From assembly GCA_039189765.1 (NCBI GenBank), contig JBCCYL010000014.1, forward strand, positions 34,786 to 98,785: a DNA stretch of 64,000 nt, read 5' to 3'. Positions 15,583 through 40,632 of this stretch are shown in pieces. How positions within the stretch are numbered: the first letter of the stretch is position 1; the number at the start of each line of letters is the position of its first letter. The notes under the pieces are model-generated. The model ran no database searches and was not told where the DNA came from. It was given only the letters and a program-made list of their open reading frames with translations. The translations under genes and the position numbers were made by a program. Source of the stretch: Cyanobacteria bacterium P01_F01_bin.150. Lineage in GTDB: Bacteria; Cyanobacteriota; Cyanobacteriia; CAKZMO01.

Positions 15583-15855
15583 GCGATCGCCCGCAACCCT
15601 ATCACCACTGCCAATAAAGCTGCTTTCAGGAAGCGACGAGACCTTCAAGACATCACCCATTCAGCACAATCAGCAGGAGCGATCGCCTTCTTTGTCACAT
15701 CCCAATGCTGCCATCAGATCGATCGCCCCTCTTGCGACTGTACGTGAGCGATCGCATTTCCTTCAATGATTACGCGTGAAATACAGGGGGAGTGGGGTGG
15801 ATTATGGTGTGGAGGGGAGTAATCGATCGCCCCCTCAAAAATGGACTGAACCGCA
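15583..15855. repeat. HIP1-rich dispersed element, copy A
   Basis: Aligns by eye with copies B-G (cagcacaatcagca..gcgatcgccttc...gatcgcccctctt...gcgatcgcatttccttcaa). Confidence 0.85.
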
Positions 15856-15862
15856 GCATTAC

Positions 15863-16297
15863 TTAAAGGTGGTCTGTCTCAGTTACTGTTGCTCCGAACA
15901 TCTTGGCGATCTGCTTGGTTGCGTCTAATCCGCCGGATGGAATGGCGAGCTGTTCATATTCGATTGTTCCGCTACCATCGTCATCCAAAGTTATTCGGAC
16001 ATAAGCGATTTCAGCGTTTTCGATAGCGTCTACCCAAGATTCAAATTCCCAGGGAGTCTTCAGCGTTGGATCTGTAAATCGTCTTTCTACTGGCGTGCTT
16101 TCCCATCGTTTCTGCCAGTCAAGGAGTTCCTCGGGAGTCGGATGCCAGAAGTTGGTTGCGACAATATCTCCCAGAATCGAGGCAATCTGATCGGCATCCA
16201 AACGTTCCTCGGCTTTTGCCGTTCGCACGTAGTCGAAGAAATTCGTCAACTGTCTGGCATTTTTTGCAGGCAAGTTCCTGAAGCGAACGTACGCCAT
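15863..16297 (-). CDS. Hypothetical protein (cassette-like)
   Basis: 144-aa ORF, same strand as the cassettes, ends at element copy A. Confidence 0.7.
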   Translation of the reverse strand: MAYVRFRNLPAKNARQLTNFFDYVRTAKAEERLDADQIASILGDIVATNFWHPTPEELLDWQKRWESTPVERRFTDPTLKTPWEFESWVDAIENAEIAYVRITLDDDGSGTIEYEQLAIPSGGLDATKQIAKMFGATVTETDHL

Positions 16298-16648
16298 TTT
16301 GGATTCAATCCTTTAATGTTTTTGAGCTTAGTAGACGGTCAAGGCGAGCAAACATAACAAGCATAACTTCGTAGTCCGTATCTGTTGCAATGAGGTTATT
16401 AGGCATCGCTAGTACTACAAACAGCATTGCTGAAAGGTGCTCCCAGCCTTGACCAATATGTCTAAATTGGCGCGATCGCTCTTCTTGCGATTTCACGTTG
16501 GCAAGCCTATGTTGGCAAGCGCTAGACAGATCTATGCGCAACAATATATTGAGTGCTTATTTGGTCAGGCATCAATAGCGTTGGGAGACCAAGGGCTGAA
16601 TGATAGCGTTCTTGTTCTAAGAAAGGATTGCTACCATAACCAGCTTCA

Positions 16649-17143
16649 TCAACCGCATTGCCGATGATTAGGATTTTGGGGGAGTTTAAGTTTGTCCAAC
16701 GTATTTCTTCTATCCCAGAATGGAACAACAGCAATTATTGATGCTAGGTCATCGCCATTGAGCCACATCATGGTGACTGTCCGAATGCGATCAAGTTCGG
16801 CAGTCACAACACAGGCGTAGTCGCCAATGCCGAATACTCGACCAAGTAGAGTTTCCTTGCCATTGGAAGAGAGATGAACTTCCCAGCATTCTGGTTTTCC
16901 ACGCCTAAGTCTTCCCCGCCAAATGAAATCAACAATCCGATCGTCACGCCGAATCAAGAAAAAACTCCAATGTTCGTTTGCTGTAATCGTTGCGCCATTG
17001 CCAACCAACTCTTTAAGAAACGTAATGAACTCAGGGCCAAACGACACCGCTGGAATTGGATTCGGAAATTCATCCGGCCATCGCATGGGCTTATAGAAAT
17101 TATTCACTAACAGCAACCCTTTCATTTGGGTAGTCGAATTCAA
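16649..17143 (-). CDS. Hypothetical protein (true start probably downstream)
   Basis: Open frame that overlaps the next ORF by 44 bp. Confidence 0.5.
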   Translation of the reverse strand: MNSTTQMKGLLLVNNFYKPMRWPDEFPNPIPAVSFGPEFITFLKELVGNGATITANEHWSFFLIRRDDRIVDFIWRGRLRRGKPECWEVHLSSNGKETLLGRVFGIGDYACVVTAELDRIRTVTMMWLNGDDLASIIAVVPFWDRRNTLDKLKLPQNPNHRQCG

Positions 17144-18662
17144 TGACAGAATCGCTACCGACTTCTTGAAAGGAAAAGCGTTTTATAGAGTTTTGATAGT
17201 AATTTTGTGTATATTCTTGGAAAAACACTAAAACAATAATTTGGTATGCGTTTTCTTTGGATAGTTCTAACCTTCGGCCTCCTTTCCATCTAATATTTGG
17301 TTCTAGTATTTCATAGTCCAGCTCTGTTATTGGGCTAGAGTCTTCAGTGCTTGTAAACCAAAACCGAATTACATTACGGCCTGATTCAATGTCTGAAATG
17401 TAATGGACAAAGGGATCGTTTCCAATACGAGATTCTTTCGGTGCCGGAGGGTTAACGTCTATAGTTGGGTCACCCACTTCTCCAGTTGCACCTTCTAAGG
17501 GTATTTTGGGTTCCTGAATCGTATAGAACTGATCACCGCCAATCCAGAGTTCATTATCAGAATGCCCCCAAATTGTATTTACGGAGAGAGAAGTCGCCCC
17601 TGAAACATTGATCCATTCACCATTCCCATTAGACCAGAGAATTGTGCCCTGTAGCCCAACGACATAGATGGATTGAGGATTCAAGCCCCAAACAGCCGTG
17701 AGCTGTTGATTGTACTTTAGTTGTCTGGTCCATTGACCATCGCCTTGGGAATAGAAAATAGACCCTAATCTGGTGACTGCATAGAATGCGCCTTGCCCGT
17801 TTCCCCAAATAGAGTCAAAGTCCTCTTGGGTATCTGACTCCTCTAGGACCCAAATACCACCTTGATTGCGGCGTATGATTTTACCTTTTTCACCCACCAC
17901 AAATACGTTGTTTTGATCACCACTGACCCCAAAAAAGTCAACGTCAACAGGGCTTGGCTCTTGAGTCCAGCTTCCCTCCCCGGGGGAAACTAAAATCGTT
18001 TGGTCAAATCCAACCGCAAAAATCTGTTGAGCACCTCCAGGAGATTCTCGTCCCCAAACTGCATTGAGAGCCTTGGTTACGGGAGTCGAATTTAGTTGCC
18101 ATTGGGACTGACCCGGTTGGCGACTTAAAATGGTTCCTTTGCCGCCAACCGCATAAATTTTATGTTGGCGATCGCCCCAAATCCCAGAAAACCGTGGGCC
18201 ATTAAACAGAGTTTGACTCCACTGGCCCTGTTCACGGGACCATAACTGTTCCCAATTGGCAGAGGTAACAGTATGCTCATTCCCCCATAACCCCATAACG
18301 GGTTCCATATGGGCAGCAGATTCATGATGCCACTGTGTGCCATCCCAGTGCCAAATATCACCAAAGGTATAATAGCCTGGCGGTAAGTTGGCTGGAGGTT
18401 GCCTAACCGCTGGGAAGGGAGGCAAATTACACTGGAATTCTTCTGGGGCTATTGGAGGTTGTTGTAGGGGTGGAGCTACCGATGGTGTGGATTCAGGAGA
18501 CTGTGGGCTGTGTTGTTTTACAGTGGATGATTTATTGAAGGGTTTCAAGATCCCTTTCAAGACTCTCCTTACAACCCAAATGGCTGCGCCAATAATGGCT
18601 AAAATGATTCCTAAACCAATGCCAATAATGATTAGGCCAATAATTCCTTCTACCAACCTCAT
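17100..18662 (-). CDS. Membrane-anchored protein with beta-propeller-like repeats (WG...VG..G.I)
   Basis: N-terminal hydrophobic helix, Pro-rich linker, about 6 repeats of (V/I)WG-x-(Y/F)(A/V)VG..G.I...W. Confidence 0.75.
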   Translation of the reverse strand: MRLVEGIIGLIIIGIGLGIILAIIGAAIWVVRRVLKGILKPFNKSSTVKQHSPQSPESTPSVAPPLQQPPIAPEEFQCNLPPFPAVRQPPANLPPGYYTFGDIWHWDGTQWHHESAAHMEPVMGLWGNEHTVTSANWEQLWSREQGQWSQTLFNGPRFSGIWGDRQHKIYAVGGKGTILSRQPGQSQWQLNSTPVTKALNAVWGRESPGGAQQIFAVGFDQTILVSPGEGSWTQEPSPVDVDFFGVSGDQNNVFVVGEKGKIIRRNQGGIWVLEESDTQEDFDSIWGNGQGAFYAVTRLGSIFYSQGDGQWTRQLKYNQQLTAVWGLNPQSIYVVGLQGTILWSNGNGEWINVSGATSLSVNTIWGHSDNELWIGGDQFYTIQEPKIPLEGATGEVGDPTIDVNPPAPKESRIGNDPFVHYISDIESGRNVIRFWFTSTEDSSPITELDYEILEPNIRWKGGRRLELSKENAYQIIVLVFFQEYTQNYYQNSIKRFSFQEVGSDSVIEFDYPNERVAVSE

Positions 18663-18856
18663 ACCTCCGATTTATTAACGTAATTGTAGTTTTCGATTTA
18701 TGCAAGAAGCTTAATCGACCATGGTAGCTAAATTTTGATAAATACCAACCCATTCCCTATTAAGATTATTAGTCAGTAATACTCTACAAATAAATGTTCG
18801 TGATGATAGTGACCAGATCACTTATCTGGAATTTGGGTTCTGGTCACTGCATTATG

Positions 18857-39511: not shown

Positions 39512-39689
39512 TTCTCTCCTGATATTATTAGAGACGGACAAACAGAAGGTACCTCCGTTGCGAAAAAGGAGGCTCCTTTGTCTCTCACTGAACGTGGAAT
39601 TCTTGTGTATAACAGACACTTTCCGTAACCGCTTTTAATGTAGACTCTTGAGAGATGTTGTCACATCATATATCTCTTAAAAGGCAGAC

Positions 39690-39780
39690 ACCTAACGTTT
39701 ATACTCACCGGCGCGATCGTCATTTATGAAAAAATTAGCCTGCGTGGTAATCGAGCTTCCGGTGCAGTAAGAGATAGAAA
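39690..39780 (-). other. attC site with degenerate R''
   Basis: acctaac (minus-strand GTTAGGT); tactcaccgg / ccggtgcagta L boxes; R'' reads TTCTATC. Confidence 0.6.
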
Positions 39781-39885
39781 TCTGTTGTTTCTAACAGCTT
39801 ACCAATCGTGATTGCCCTTAGACTATCTTCAGTCAAGAATTCAATAAAACTTCAAAAAAGATCTCTGAATTTAGTGAATGCAGAA

Positions 39886-40130
39886 GTCTAACTATTTATT
39901 AGAGGGAAACTTTCGGCCTAATCCACCTGTGAAGCAGATTAGCTAGAAGCTTGTCCGCCTAATCCACCCAAATGGCATATTAGTTAGAAGTTCGTCCGCC
40001 TAATATCCCTATATGGGTAGTTAGATAGAAATGATTCAGTCTAATATGCCGATATGGGTGATTAGGTAGAAATTCGTCCGCCCAACATCCCGATATGGGT
40101 GATTAGGCAGAAAAATTCAGTATAATCTCC
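39886..40130 (-). other. attI-like site plus 41-bp tandem repeat block, copy 3
   Basis: gtctaactatttattag (minus-strand GTTAGAC core); units start at 39916, 39957, 39998, 40039, 40080; gtataat at 40120. Confidence 0.8.
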
Positions 40131-40193
40131 TCTTTAATGAGACATGGGAACTGTTTAATATTTATTTATCAGGGTTAATACAAAATTACTTTT

Positions 40194-40632
40194 ATGCAGT
40201 CACCCCAGTCTCGTCCGAAAAAGTTGCTTGATCAGGTTCGAGATGTCATTCGTACCAAACACTATTCATACCGAACAGAACAAACCTACGTACAGTGGAT
40301 TTACCGCTACATCATTTTCCACAACAAACGTCATCCCAAAGATATGGGCGTTCCAGAATATAGAAGCATTTTTGACGGATTTAGCAGTTAATCGTCATGT
40401 TGCAGCATCTACCCAAAATCAGGCTCTTAGTGCTTTGTTGTTTTTATACAAAGAGGTACTAAAACAGCCCTTGGATGAACGGGTCAATGCAGTTCGCGCT
40501 AAAAAGCCAAGCAAACTGCCAACGGTTCTAACCCCTGAAGAAGCAAGTCACAAAGATGTGAAAACGACTATGATTTACACCCATGTCTTAAATCGTGGAG
40601 GATTTGGGGTTCGCAGTCCGTTGGATGACTGA
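40194..40632 (+). pseudogene. intI: Integron integrase pseudogene (frameshift plus large internal deletion)
   Basis: [27 protein letters not shown]...[46 protein letters not shown] joined directly to [26 protein letters not shown]. Confidence 0.95.

What the first reader, a model, noticed from the sequence alone, without database searches (positions are those of the whole stretch)
15583..40632. Tandemly reiterated integron platform: about seven head-to-tail units of [HIP1-rich element]-cassettes-attI-41-bp repeats-intI'
Seen: the plus-strand order element, attC/cargo, attI core, 41-bp repeats, intI 5' end, next element recurs. It is complete at 24691-29796, 34291-35283 and 35328-40632, and partial at 15583-, 19640-20816, 20840- and 29815-. 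intI sequence occurs 4 times, attI plus repeats 3 times, and the element 7 times. Each unit holds different cargo. Established: a canonical integron has one intI/attI and one array, and cassette insertion at G/TTRRRY pushes the original attI downstream flank to the end of the array. Inference: the ancestral unit is element-attI-repeats-intI. It was amplified or accumulated in tandem, and each copy captured its own cassettes, giving a multi-entry, multi-promoter integron. I do not recognise this as a described architecture.
Basis: partly seen in the sequence, partly recalled or inferred. Interest (0 to 1): 0.92.

Follow-up and report, generated by a model that had tools for sequence, protein, structure and literature searches.

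The report
Decayed cyanobacterial integron, platform repeated sevenfold
A chromosomal gene-capture locus (integron) of a marine filamentous cyanobacterium has had its entry site copied head-to-tail about seven times, each copy holding different foreign genes, but every copy of its recombinase gene is broken, so it looks like a fossil, not a working multi-entry machine.

Summary
A non-coding, HIP1-rich element (E, about 365 nt) occurs 7 times, all on the + strand and only between 15.6 and 35.7 kb. intI sequence occurs 4 times, and attI with 41-bp repeats 3 times. No cargo is repeated. A covariance model built partly from attC sites of other cyanobacterial integrons finds 7 attC sites, all in one orientation. 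In 4 of 7 copies E starts exactly at the attC crossover (G|TTATCT), as expected for DNA that once lay just beyond attI.

Tandem reiteration of the platform is real and old: copies are 76-92% identical, and similarity falls with distance between units. A working multi-entry integron is not supported. Three intI copies are stubs of 55-155 nt. The fourth has a frameshift and lacks residues 119-297. Three or four units have lost their attI head.

The architecture has precedents: In104 of SGI1 has two attI1 sites and a truncated intI1 (PMC3285670), and locus L036 carries two tandem platforms. I rate it a new variant of a known kind, of moderate interest.

The parts
15583..15875 (+). E1: outermost element copy. 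Distal end intact (starts at a HIP1 site 15 nt after the stop of ORF 14966-15568). attI-proximal end missing.
   Evidence: 76-80% identical to the other copies in the core
19604..19880 (+). E2: distal ~100 nt missing; proximal end intact and joined to an attC.
19874..19965 (+). attC site next to E2 (box AGATAAC|G ... GTTAGGC).
   Evidence: CM R1 77.7 bits (training sequence); aligns with attC sites of L047 and L035
20745..20837 (+). intI 5' stub M3 (codons ~22-52, with a stop codon), fused to E3. Its attI, repeats and first ~63 nt are deleted.
   Evidence: tblastn 2.7e-07; translation; same junction as at 29817 (D8, 27)
20838..21122 (+). E3: begins at E position ~78 (type-1 junction with intI'); proximal end intact.
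21116..21217 (+). attC site next to E3 (GAATAAC|G ... GGTTGGG).
   Evidence: CM R1 51.7 bits (training sequence)
24691..24892 (+). E4: distal end intact (starts at a HIP1 site). Internal deletion between two GAGATAA words. Followed by an attC-left-half-like ATAACGTCAATTCC.
   Evidence: no hairpin when folded
29335..29346 (+). attI core of head M5 (GCCTAAC|TATTTATTAG).
   Evidence: same core as in L047 and L005
29347..29510 (+). Four 41-bp repeats of head M5.
   Evidence: (D4, D5)
29526..29604 (+). Conserved 79-nt block with TCAGTATAATC (-10-like) of head M5. A ~58-nt AT-rich insertion follows.
   Evidence: (D10)
29663..29817 (+). intI 5' stub M5 (codons 1-52; stop after codon 13, frameshift), fused to E5.
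29819..30077 (+). E5: type-1 junction as in E3; proximal end intact.
   Evidence: 86% over 301 nt with 20752-21051
30071..30157 (+). attC next to E5 (AGATAAC|G ... GGTTATG).
   Evidence: CM R1 62.9 bits (training sequence)
31298..31386 (+). attC between the APH-like and multicopper-oxidase cassettes (GCATAACG ... GTTAGAC).
   Evidence: CM R1 14.2 bits, E 0.22 for the whole window and 0.09 for the region; not a training sequence
33110..33204 (+). attC upstream of the multicopper-oxidase cassette (GTCTAACG ... GTTAGGC).
   Evidence: CM R1 18.3 bits, E 0.02 / 0.008; not a training sequence
34263..34590 (+). E6 with a 28-nt leftward extension shared with E7. Proximal ~70 nt missing. Followed at 34596-34612 by an attC right half (GTCGGATGCAGCCGATTGTTAT).
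   Evidence: (D13); the right-half match to the attC consensus was read by eye
35087..35136 (+). Head M7: variant attI junction GAGATAAC|AATTAGG (lacks the TATTT of the canonical core) plus one 41-bp repeat.
35152..35230 (+). Conserved 79-nt block of head M7.
   Evidence: D10, 81%
35229..35283 (+). intI 5' stub M7 (first ~18 codons), followed by a 44-nt extension and then E7 (type-2 junction).
   Evidence: 81% over 198 nt with 40061-40258
35328..35686 (+). E7: the only full-length copy, from the HIP1 site to AGATAAC (leftward extension from 35300).
35680..35773 (+). attC next to E7.
   Evidence: CM R1 63.8 bits (training sequence); DNA fold z = -2.3
39690..39782 (+). attC of a short ORF-less first cassette (ACCTAACG ...; the far box is degenerate, GATAG).
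   Evidence: CM R1 20.7 bits, E 0.0046 / 0.0019; not a training sequence
39886..40101 (+). Head M8: attI core GTCTAAC|TATTTATTAG plus five 41-bp repeats.
40117..40195 (+). Conserved 79-nt block of head M8.
   Evidence: D10
40194..40632 (+). Terminal intI pseudogene: codons 1-52, a frameshift near 40350, codons 60-118, loss of codons 119-297, then codons 298-323 (keeps MIYTHV).
15863..39619 (-). Cargo, mostly on the - strand (read away from intI):
- five unknown ORFs (15863-19622)
- SnoaL-like gene and an ADP-ribosylglycohydrolase fragment (19986-20766)
- kinase-like gene (21276-22286), with a histidine kinase on the + strand (22727-24568)
- five-gene operon of EamA transporter, amidotransferase, formyltransferase, FAD oxidoreductase and a 108-aa ORF (24918-29275)
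- APH-like kinase (30164-31213)
- CueO-like oxidase (31508-32980)
- PepSY on the + strand (33820-34155)
- 149-aa ORF (34614-35063)
- three Hbl/Nhe/MakA-like genes (36276-39619)
   Evidence: 7 HIP1 sites lie outside E between 15583 and 40632 (my count from the list); GC is 38-42% over 24-30 kb, against 47-55% over 41-64 kb

Best explanation
The region 15.6-40.6 kb is a decayed sedentary chromosomal integron of a marine Leptolyngbyaceae-type cyanobacterium. Its 'edge' has been reiterated head-to-tail about seven times. The edge consists of E, the attI core, the 41-bp repeats, a promoter block and the first 55-155 nt of intI.

E is ordinary non-coding host DNA, unusually rich in HIP1, that lay immediately beyond the attI crossover point before any cassette was inserted.

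Proposed sequence of events:
1. An illegitimate join between the 5' part of intI and E created a tandem duplicate of the whole integron.
2. Unequal crossing-over between units multiplied it locally.
3. While an integrase was still available, cassettes entered at the separate attI sites. Each unit therefore came to read E - attC - cargo - attI - repeats - intI'.
4. Deletions then removed the attI head from three or four units and the attC/E-proximal end from three.
5. The last full intI lost 179 codons.

Today the locus is most likely inert for site-specific recombination unless an IntI is supplied from elsewhere in the genome.

Shown: the parts, their order, the crossover-exact E/attC junctions, the shared junction, and the dead intI copies.

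Inferred: the order of events, that cassettes entered through the internal attI sites, and that E has no function of its own.
For: 1. Integron identity. The intI remnant's top 120 listed relatives are integron integrases of about 320 aa; named ones include Cyanothece, Leptolyngbya, Halomicronema and Almyronema. The remnant is 87-89% identical to P0001.

2. attI and repeats. The attI core YTAAC|TATKTATTAGA and tandem 40/41-bp repeats lie directly upstream of intI in other cyanobacterial loci: L001, L002, L003, L008, L018, L023 and L035 by profile, and L002, L005, L009, L027 and L047 by repeat finding. The sequences were read.

3. attC sites. CM R1 was built from 4 window sites and 5 sites from L047 and L035. 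In 35 cyanobacterial loci (416,265 nt) it gave 34 hits at E <= 0.01. All 34 are on the strand expected from intI. 33 lie upstream of the locus's intI and 1 lies between the two platforms of L036. 29 of the 34 were not training sequences (positions checked). In the window it gave the 4 training sites plus 3 new ones (E 0.0046, 0.02, 0.22). All 7 are on the + strand and lie between 19.8 and 39.8 kb.

4. E starts at the crossover. All four E-adjacent attC sites carry AGATAAC or GAATAAC. The three attC sites not next to E carry GTCTAAC, GCATAAC and ACCTAAC.

5. Duplication in place. E3 and E5 share an identical-type junction, with 86% identity over 301 nt spanning intI' and E. For the intI stubs, M3-M5 are 83% identical and M3/M5-M8 76-78%, against at most 71% to any of 78 external 5' ends. 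E core identity falls with unit distance (means 86.7, 86.2, 85, 82, 79 and 76% for distances 1-6). The correlation is r = -0.56, with 20 of 5040 permutations as low.

6. Foreign cargo, native E. By my count from the list, the seven E copies hold 27 HIP1 sites in about 2 kb. The rest of 15583-40632 holds 7 sites in about 23 kb. The 41-64 kb flank holds 40 sites in 23 kb. Cargo GC falls as low as 38%.

7. Decay. Stop codons and frameshifts occur in stubs M3 and M5. In M8, residues 119-297 are lost, including the HTFRHSFATHLL box.

8. Precedent for tandem duplication. L036 has intI + 196-nt flank, then cassettes with an attC, then an internally deleted intI' + the same flank at 87% identity.
Against: - Copies differ by 8-24% (core) to 39% (proximal part). 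Divergence in place needs a long residence, yet E was not found elsewhere: 0 matches of a 26-nt E motif in genome contigs and no E profile hit at E < 0.5 in 80 IntI loci. The closest relatives of a flanking protein are only 84-87% identical, so this absence says little.
- No cargo is shared between units. The duplicated units must therefore have been empty or fully turned over, which needs integrase activity after the duplication. However, two attI sites in direct order are reported to excise very efficiently with IntI1 (PMC12901181, abstract).
- Units 1, 4 and 6 lack a recognisable whole attC. Several 'cassettes' are multi-gene (a 5-gene 4.4-kb unit and a 3-gene 3.9-kb unit), which is atypical.
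- The E core is better conserved than its flanks: 84% against 76% and 70%, or 81% against 74% and 68% without the HIP1 columns. 'Functionless flank' does not predict this.
- The rest of the genome was not available, so an intact intI elsewhere cannot be excluded.
Confidence: 0.55

Rival explanations
1. Accretion by natural transformation. Units (E - cargo - attI/intI') came in one after another from related strains. They entered by homologous or homology-facilitated illegitimate recombination, with the HIP1-dense E and the attI/intI 5' block as homology arms. No integrase is needed, and copy divergence reflects differences between donors.
For: - Copies are 8-24% diverged while the cargo is unique and HIP1-poor.
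- Junctions are irregular. There are two intI'/E junction types, and E1 and E4 begin exactly at a HIP1 site.
- Homologous HIP1 sites in homology arms are reported to raise integration by natural transformation up to 7-fold, and more than 100-fold when methylated (bioRxiv 10.1101/2024.09.10.611283, abstract only). HIP1 has been proposed as an adaptation for gene transfer (PMC13756078, abstract only).
- The three-HIP1 core of E is its best-conserved part.
- All intI copies are dead.
Against: - E similarity falls with distance between units (20 of 5040 permutations), and E3/E5 share one junction. Both point to copying in place.
- Double-arm homologous exchange replaces a segment and does not add to it. 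Addition needs a circular intermediate or an illegitimate end each time.
- No donor-like sequence was found.
Confidence: 0.2
2. The locus still works as a multi-entry, multi-promoter integron. An intact IntI encoded elsewhere acts in trans on the three attI heads, and each head's promoter block drives its own cargo.
For: - Heads M5 and M8 keep the canonical core and 4-5 repeats. All three heads keep TCAGTATAATC.
- Nearly all cargo genes point away from the heads.
- About 20% of integron-bearing bacteria carry more than one intI (PMC2426708, abstract).
Against: - No intact intI lies in the 64 kb.
- Head M7 lacks the canonical core, and the head of unit 2 is deleted.
- The head blocks are 74-82% identical, about the same as the dead intI stubs, so there is no sign of purifying selection.
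- The consensus promoter scan found no more sites than in shuffled sequence: 16 against 18.7 +/- 4.3.
- Direct attI repeats are expected to be unstable when the integrase is active (PMC12901181, abstract).
Confidence: 0.12
3. The module [E - intI' - promoter block - repeats - attI left half] is itself mobile, a 'platform cassette'. It is bounded by G|TT crossover points on both sides. attI x attI recombination could excise it, and its reconstituted attI could reinsert it at any attC of an array. This would seed new entry points and promoters inside the array.
For: - Both ends of modules M5 and M7 fall on crossover boxes: AGATAAC|G at E, and YTAAC|T at attI (for M7 the variant GAGATAAC|A).
- attI1-ORF-attI1 and delta-attI-type cassettes are excised and inserted by IntI1 (PMC12901181, abstract and introduction).
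Against: - The same boundaries are expected from ordinary cassette capture at each attI.
- There are two different intI'/E junctions inside the module.
- No copy of the module was found outside this array, in the window or in 80 loci.
- No active integrase is present.
Confidence: 0.08
4. E is an independent dispersed repeat (MITE-like or HIP1-based) that happens to cluster here, or E encodes a small RNA or peptide with its own function.
For: - There are seven copies with a conserved 100-nt core.
- A terminator-like hairpin lies on the - strand in the distal part of E7.
Against: - All 7 copies are in one orientation and inside the integron; there are none in the other ~39 kb.
- No terminal inverted repeats or target duplications were seen in the aligned copies.
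- No reading frame is open in all copies.
- A translated frame had no relative among proteins of 42-137 aa. Among 1.84 billion representatives it had one spurious hit to a leucine-rich-repeat protein.
- Rfam gave 0 hits at gathering scores and 0 at E <= 1.
- 0 of 32 predicted pairs show compensatory change.
- The terminator-like site was called in 1 of the 2 distal parts scanned.
Confidence: 0.04
5. Assembly artefact (mis-joined or over-expanded repeats).
For: None found. Integron arrays do often break assemblies: 37 of 80 fetched loci start within 1 kb of intI.
Against: - Copies differ by 8-24% and have different truncation points.
- Every unit has unique cargo.
Confidence: 0.01

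Closest known systems
In104, the complex class 1 integron of Salmonella genomic island 1
   Same: One locus with two attI sites in direct order. The second attI sits behind a truncated intI1 (groEL-intI1 fusion) that keeps the 5' part. 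Each attI holds its own cassette, and the repeated intI 5' ends recombine with each other (PMC3285670, introduction and discussion passages read).
   Different: In104 is a recent, mobile, two-copy structure with identical 441-bp repeats and one working intI1. Here there are seven old, diverged copies in a chromosomal cyanobacterial integron, a repeated distal flank (E), and no working intI.
Locus L036 (Synechococcales cyanobacterium MAG, contig JAYVVL010000088.1)
   Same: Two integron platforms in tandem in a cyanobacterium, with attC-bearing cassettes in front of each. The second intI is internally deleted, and 196 nt of flank is repeated at 87% identity.
   Different: There are only two units. 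The repeated flank is the 3' end of the gene downstream of intI, not the DNA distal to attI. There is no E-like element. The first intI carries an in-frame stop.
Sedentary chromosomal integrons with intI pseudogenes ('pseudo-integrons') and CALIN elements
   Same: Chromosomal arrays whose integrase is inactivated. About one third of surveyed intI genes are pseudogenes, some arising from intragenomic duplication (PMC2426708, abstract and the Pseudogenes section passages). intI pseudogenes lie near 15 of 279 CALIN (PMC4889954, passages).
   Different: Those descriptions have one platform per array. Tandem reiteration of attI and the intI 5' end inside one array is not mentioned in the passages I read: 'tandem' and 'duplication' had 0 occurrences in PMC4889954, and 'tandem' 0 in PMC2426708.
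attI1 with its direct repeats DR1/DR2, and delta-attI-type cassettes
   Same: attI1 is a simple site plus two direct repeats that bind IntI1 (PMC3146285 and PMC12901181, introductions). Segments bounded by attI sites behave as cassettes (PMC12901181, abstract).
   Different: Here the accessory repeats are 41 bp long and present in 4-5 copies. Each looks like an inverted pair (ATTAG ... CTAAT). Binding by IntI is untested.

Membership tests
Integron (complete, in the IntegronFinder sense) | An intI gene encoding an intact integron-type tyrosine recombinase with the IntI-specific additional domain | tested here: not met
   All four copies are defective. The best one lacks residues 119-297, which in the aligned relatives hold the LPFALARKYPNA... 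segment and the HTFRHSFATHLL box, and it has a frameshift. That this segment is the IntI-specific domain is recalled knowledge.
Integron (complete, in the IntegronFinder sense) | An attI site next to the 5' end of intI | tested here: met
   By likeness only. The core YTAAC|TATKTATTAGA and the 40/41-bp repeats match those upstream of intI in L005, L009, L047 and others. Recombination was not tested.
Integron (complete, in the IntegronFinder sense) | Cassettes ending in attC sites, in one orientation, on the attI side | tested here: met
   Seven CM hits, all on the + strand, between 19.8 and 39.8 kb. Three are independent of the training set. The model was validated on 35 loci.
Integron (complete, in the IntegronFinder sense) | A cassette promoter Pc | tested here: inconclusive
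   A conserved 79-nt block with TATAAT is present in all three heads. The consensus scan was not above shuffles. There are no expression data.
CALIN (cluster of attC sites lacking an integrase) | At least two attC sites with no intI, or only a pseudogene, nearby | tested here: met
   Seven attC sites with only intI pseudogenes. The definition is as described in PMC4889954 (passages).
Complex multi-attI integron (In104-like) | More than one attI in direct order in one locus, the extra one(s) behind a 5' remnant of intI | tested here: met
   Three attI heads and four intI 5' pieces in direct order.
Complex multi-attI integron (In104-like) | Class 1 backbone (5'-CS/3'-CS, Tn402-type context) | tested here: not met
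   The nearest IntI relatives are cyanobacterial chromosomal ones. There was no match to PLSDB plasmids for 35075-35700.
Structured non-coding RNA (for E) | A conserved secondary structure with compensatory changes, or a match to a known family | tested here: not met
   0 of 32 predicted pairs have compensatory changes. Rfam gave 0 hits.
Dispersed mobile repeat / MITE (for E) | Copies at unrelated genomic sites, with terminal inverted repeats and target-site duplications | tested here: inconclusive
   There are no copies outside the integron in the 64-kb window or in 80 loci, and there were 0 motif matches in genome contigs. The source genome itself was not available.

The most novel reading that the evidence does not exclude
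The reiterated platform is not debris but a way of building arrays. One route is that the module E - intI' - promoter - repeats - attI moves as an attI-bounded 'platform cassette', seeding new entry points and promoters inside an array. The other is that the HIP1-dense E serves as a recombination-enhancing arm that lets whole units pass between cyanobacteria by natural transformation without any integrase. Either way, integron-type gene capture would have a second, platform-level layer of mobility in cyanobacteria.
Probability: 0.15. Interest if true: 0.8.

Novelty: new variant of a known kind. Interest (0 to 1): 0.5.

Why it matters
Integrons are normally drawn with one integrase, one attI and one array. 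This locus shows that a chromosomal integron's entry site can be copied many times in tandem and persist long enough for the copies to diverge by 10-20%. Each copy ends up next to different foreign genes.

If the internal sites were once active, distal cassettes could have been expressed and exchanged without moving to the front of the array. That bears on how large arrays stay useful.

The locus also gives a natural test bed for attI x attI stability. It may also show whether the cyanobacterial HIP1 motif helps foreign DNA to be integrated.

Separately, the 40/41-bp repeats between attI and intI seem to be a shared, apparently uncharacterised trait of cyanobacterial integrons. They are candidates for accessory integrase or regulator binding sites.

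Tried and rejected
- E as coding sequence. The six-frame translation of all copies shows no frame open in all seven. The best frame (34345-34578) found no relative among proteins of 42-137 aa. Among 1.84 billion representatives it found only a leucine-rich-repeat protein matched through its repeats, which I judge spurious.
- E as RNA. Rfam gave nothing at gathering scores or at E <= 1, there was no covariation, and there are no tRNA genes.
- E elsewhere. The 26-nt motif had 0 matches in genome contigs, and the source genome itself was not found. The nhmmer core profile against 80 loci (988,943 nt) had a best E of 0.58. blastn and tblastx of E with its flanks against the loci gave nothing below E 0.004. 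PLSDB plasmids gave no match.
- Hidden intI stubs left of E1, E2, E4 and E6. Local alignment against heads M7 and M8 was no better than shuffles (196-491 of 500 shuffles scored as well). A MAFFT alignment that looked suggestive is therefore discounted.
- Simple hairpin scan for attC. It picked up only the E-adjacent sites and missed obvious attC sites in relatives, so I replaced it with the covariance model.
- Single-strand folding energies of attC candidates. These were mostly not better than shuffles, so they are not used as evidence either way.
- Similarity between E and the DNA after the terminal intI (40627-40900): none.
- Cluster look-up of window proteins.
- Not checked: metagenome and viral contig collections (closed), supplementary files of the papers (closed), and the rest of the source genome.

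Full report
**What is there**

The region is bounded on the left by ordinary chromosomal genes: a LysR regulator, a flavodoxin-like reductase and a 200-aa ORF ending at 15568. On the right it is bounded by an S9 peptidase and CobN, from 40895.

Only three kinds of sequence are repeated between these flanks, apart from one 32-nt match to 45688-45718.

- **E.** E is a non-coding element. An nhmmer profile finds seven copies, all on the + strand, at E-values of 5e-48 to 6e-70. It finds nothing comparable in the rest of the 64 kb.
- **The 'head'.** It consists of an attI core, 41-bp tandem repeats and a 79-nt block carrying TCAGTATAATC. It is present three times, at about 29335, 35087 and 39886.
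- **The 5' end of intI.** It is present four times.

No cargo segment matches another unit.

**It is integron DNA**

- The ORFs at 40194-40632 translate to the N-terminal domain and the last 26 residues of an integron integrase.
- The top 120 listed database relatives are integron integrases of about 320 aa. The named ones are mostly cyanobacterial.
- In an alignment with 14 of them, the window copy covers residues 1-52, then a frameshift, residues 60-118, a gap for residues 119-297, and residues 298-323. It is 87-89% identical to P0001.
- The other three copies are stubs: 20745-20837 (with a stop codon), 29663-29817 (a stop after codon 13 and a frameshift) and 35229-35283.

I built a covariance model from the four hairpin sites next to E plus five attC sites from two other cyanobacterial integrons.

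- On 35 cyanobacterial IntI loci it gave 34 hits at E <= 0.01. All 34 are on the expected strand.
- 33 of them lie upstream of intI and one lies between the two platforms of L036. 29 were not in the training set.
- In the window it returned the four training sites and three new ones, at 39690, 33110 and 31298 (E 0.0046, 0.02, 0.22).
- All seven are on the + strand and in the intergenic places where cassette ends should be. Nothing credible lies outside 19.8-39.8 kb.

**What E is**

- A full copy runs about 365 nt, from a HIP1 site to the word AGATAAC. E6 and E7 share 28-44 further bases on the left (D13).
- No frame is open in all copies.
- A translated frame has no real protein relative.
- Rfam finds nothing, and the predicted pairs show no compensatory change.
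- The seven copies hold 27 HIP1 sites in about 2 kb. The rest of the region holds 7 in about 23 kb. The native flank at 41-64 kb holds 40 in 23 kb. These are my counts from the list.
- In E2, E3, E5 and E7 the element runs straight into an attC site. The shared sequence stops at AGATAAC|G (GAATAAC|G in E3). On the cassette strand this is the crossover box G|TTATCT.
- attC sites not next to E carry GTCTAAC, GCATAAC or ACCTAAC instead.
- The three copies without a whole attC look like later damage. E4 has lost everything between an internal GAGATAA and the terminal GAGATAA, and is followed by an attC-left-half-like string. E6 is followed by an attC right half (compared by eye with the consensus). 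E1 runs into an ORF.

**How the array arose**

- E3 and E5 are joined to intI' at the same point (intI nt ~150 to E position ~78). They are 86% identical across the junction, so a unit that already contained the junction was copied.
- E7 has a different junction: intI nt ~55, 44 extra bases, then full E.
- The decayed stubs M3 and M5 are closest to each other (83%). Next closest is the terminal copy M8 (76-78%). They are at most 71% identical to any of 78 intI 5' ends from other genomes.
- E core identity falls steadily with the number of units between two copies. The correlation is r = -0.56, and 20 of 5040 orderings give a value as low.
- These three results favour duplication in place and unequal crossing-over over random accretion.
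- Among the 80 related loci, one (L036) carries a second intI fragment. That locus has two platforms in tandem, each preceded by an attC-bearing cassette, with 196 nt of downstream flank repeated at 87%.
- Only 28 of the 80 loci have at least 4 kb upstream of intI, and 66 have at least 4 kb downstream. The true frequency of such tandems is therefore unknown.

**Why I call it a fossil**

- No intI in the window can encode an active enzyme.
- Units 1, 3 and 5 have no head, and unit 2 keeps only 93 nt of intI.
- Head M7 lacks the TATTT of the canonical core and keeps one repeat.
- The heads are 74-82% identical to each other, no better than the dead intI stubs.
- Work on class 1 integrons reports that a gene between two attI1 sites is excised at more than 97% (PMC12901181, abstract). 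Three attI sites in direct order should therefore be hard to keep while an integrase is active.
- Both tandem examples seen here (this window and L036) have only defective intI copies.

**What does not fit neatly**

- The units share no cargo, so cassettes must have been placed or replaced after the duplications. That needs an integrase at that time, or another route.
- The copies are old (8-24% apart in the core), yet E was found nowhere else. This is weak evidence, because the nearest relatives of a flanking protein are only 84-87% identical. They are marine Leptolyngbyaceae such as Leptothoe, Leptolyngbya PCC 7375 and Vacuolonema.
- The 100-nt core of E, with its three HIP1 sites, is better conserved than the rest of E, even without the HIP1 columns.
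- A preprint reports that homologous HIP1 sites in homology arms raise integration by natural transformation (10.1101/2024.09.10.611283, abstract only). This makes a transformation-based route for whole units worth testing.
- I could not separate these readings with the data at hand. They are listed as rivals.

**Comparison with what is known**

- The nearest described architecture is In104 of SGI1. [quoted passage not shown]
- intI pseudogenes are common, and some arise by duplication within a genome (PMC2426708).
- attI1 has two accessory direct repeats, whereas most environmental attI sites have none (PMC3146285, passages).
- In three full-text searches I did not find a description of a many-fold tandem reiteration of attI and the intI 5' end in a chromosomal integron. 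I also found no description of the 40/41-bp repeats of cyanobacterial attI regions. These searches cover open-access papers only, and supplements were closed.

**Verdict**

It is a new variant of a known kind, of moderate interest.

Noticed in passing
window 29347-29510, 35096-35136, 39897-40101; L001 130-203, L002 4110-4215, L005 2647-2810, L009 9833-9952, L027 9771-9852, L047 3762-3885, L035 6623-6655: Tandem 40/41-bp repeats (1-5 units) lie between the attI core and intI in many cyanobacterial integrons. Each unit holds an inverted pair, ATTAG ... CTAAT, that resembles a core site. They may be accessory integrase or regulator binding sites, and I found no description of them in three literature searches.
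   Followed up: partly
L036 4600-10100: A Synechococcales MAG contig carries two integron platforms in tandem. The first intI has an in-frame stop, and the second is internally deleted. 196 nt of the downstream gene's 3' end is repeated at 87%.
   Followed up: partly
window 15680-15790 and the matching part of each E copy: The 100-nt core of E (three HIP1 sites) is 84% identical on average between copies, against 76% and 70% for the two flanks of E. The gap remains without the HIP1 columns (81% against 74% and 68%). This is unexplained; constraint or gene conversion are possible.
   Followed up: partly
window 36276-39619 (- strand): Three adjacent genes weakly related to the Hbl/Nhe/MakA family of alpha-helical pore-forming toxins (Pfam Bacillus_HBL, E 4e-17 to 1e-07, each a little above the family's cut-off; NCBIfam NheB/NheC/MakA far below their cut-offs) sit together as one ~3.9-kb cassette with a single attC.
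   Followed up: no
window 24918-29275 (- strand): A five-gene, low-GC (38-42%) operon with no HIP1 site lies between E4 and head M5, with no internal attC. It comprises an EamA transporter, a class-I amidotransferase, a formyltransferase, an FAD oxidoreductase and a 108-aa ORF. This is unusually large for one cassette.
   Followed up: no
window 39783-39891: The first 'cassette' next to the terminal attI is about 200 bp including its attC and has no ORF. Its attC has a degenerate far box (GATAG).
   Followed up: no
window 29605-29662: An AT-rich insertion of ~58 nt lies between the promoter block and the intI' start in head M5. It is absent from heads M7 and M8.
   Followed up: no
window 45285-45337 and 46641-46693 (inside the CobN ORF 42838-47391): A 53-nt stretch is repeated at 98% identity, with further 83-92% repeats around it, inside a cobaltochelatase gene that is long for its family (1517 aa).
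   Followed up: no
window 6016-11052: A 1474-aa nSTAND1 NTPase with WD40 repeats lies next to a divergently oriented Trypco1-domain ORF. This part of the window (1-15 kb) is also HIP1-poor (8 sites in 15 kb).
   Followed up: no
window 1578-1668, 47434-47503, 50784-50864; 6044-6144 and 57601-57701: Short dispersed repeats (70-100 nt, 75-80% identical) unrelated to E.
   Followed up: no
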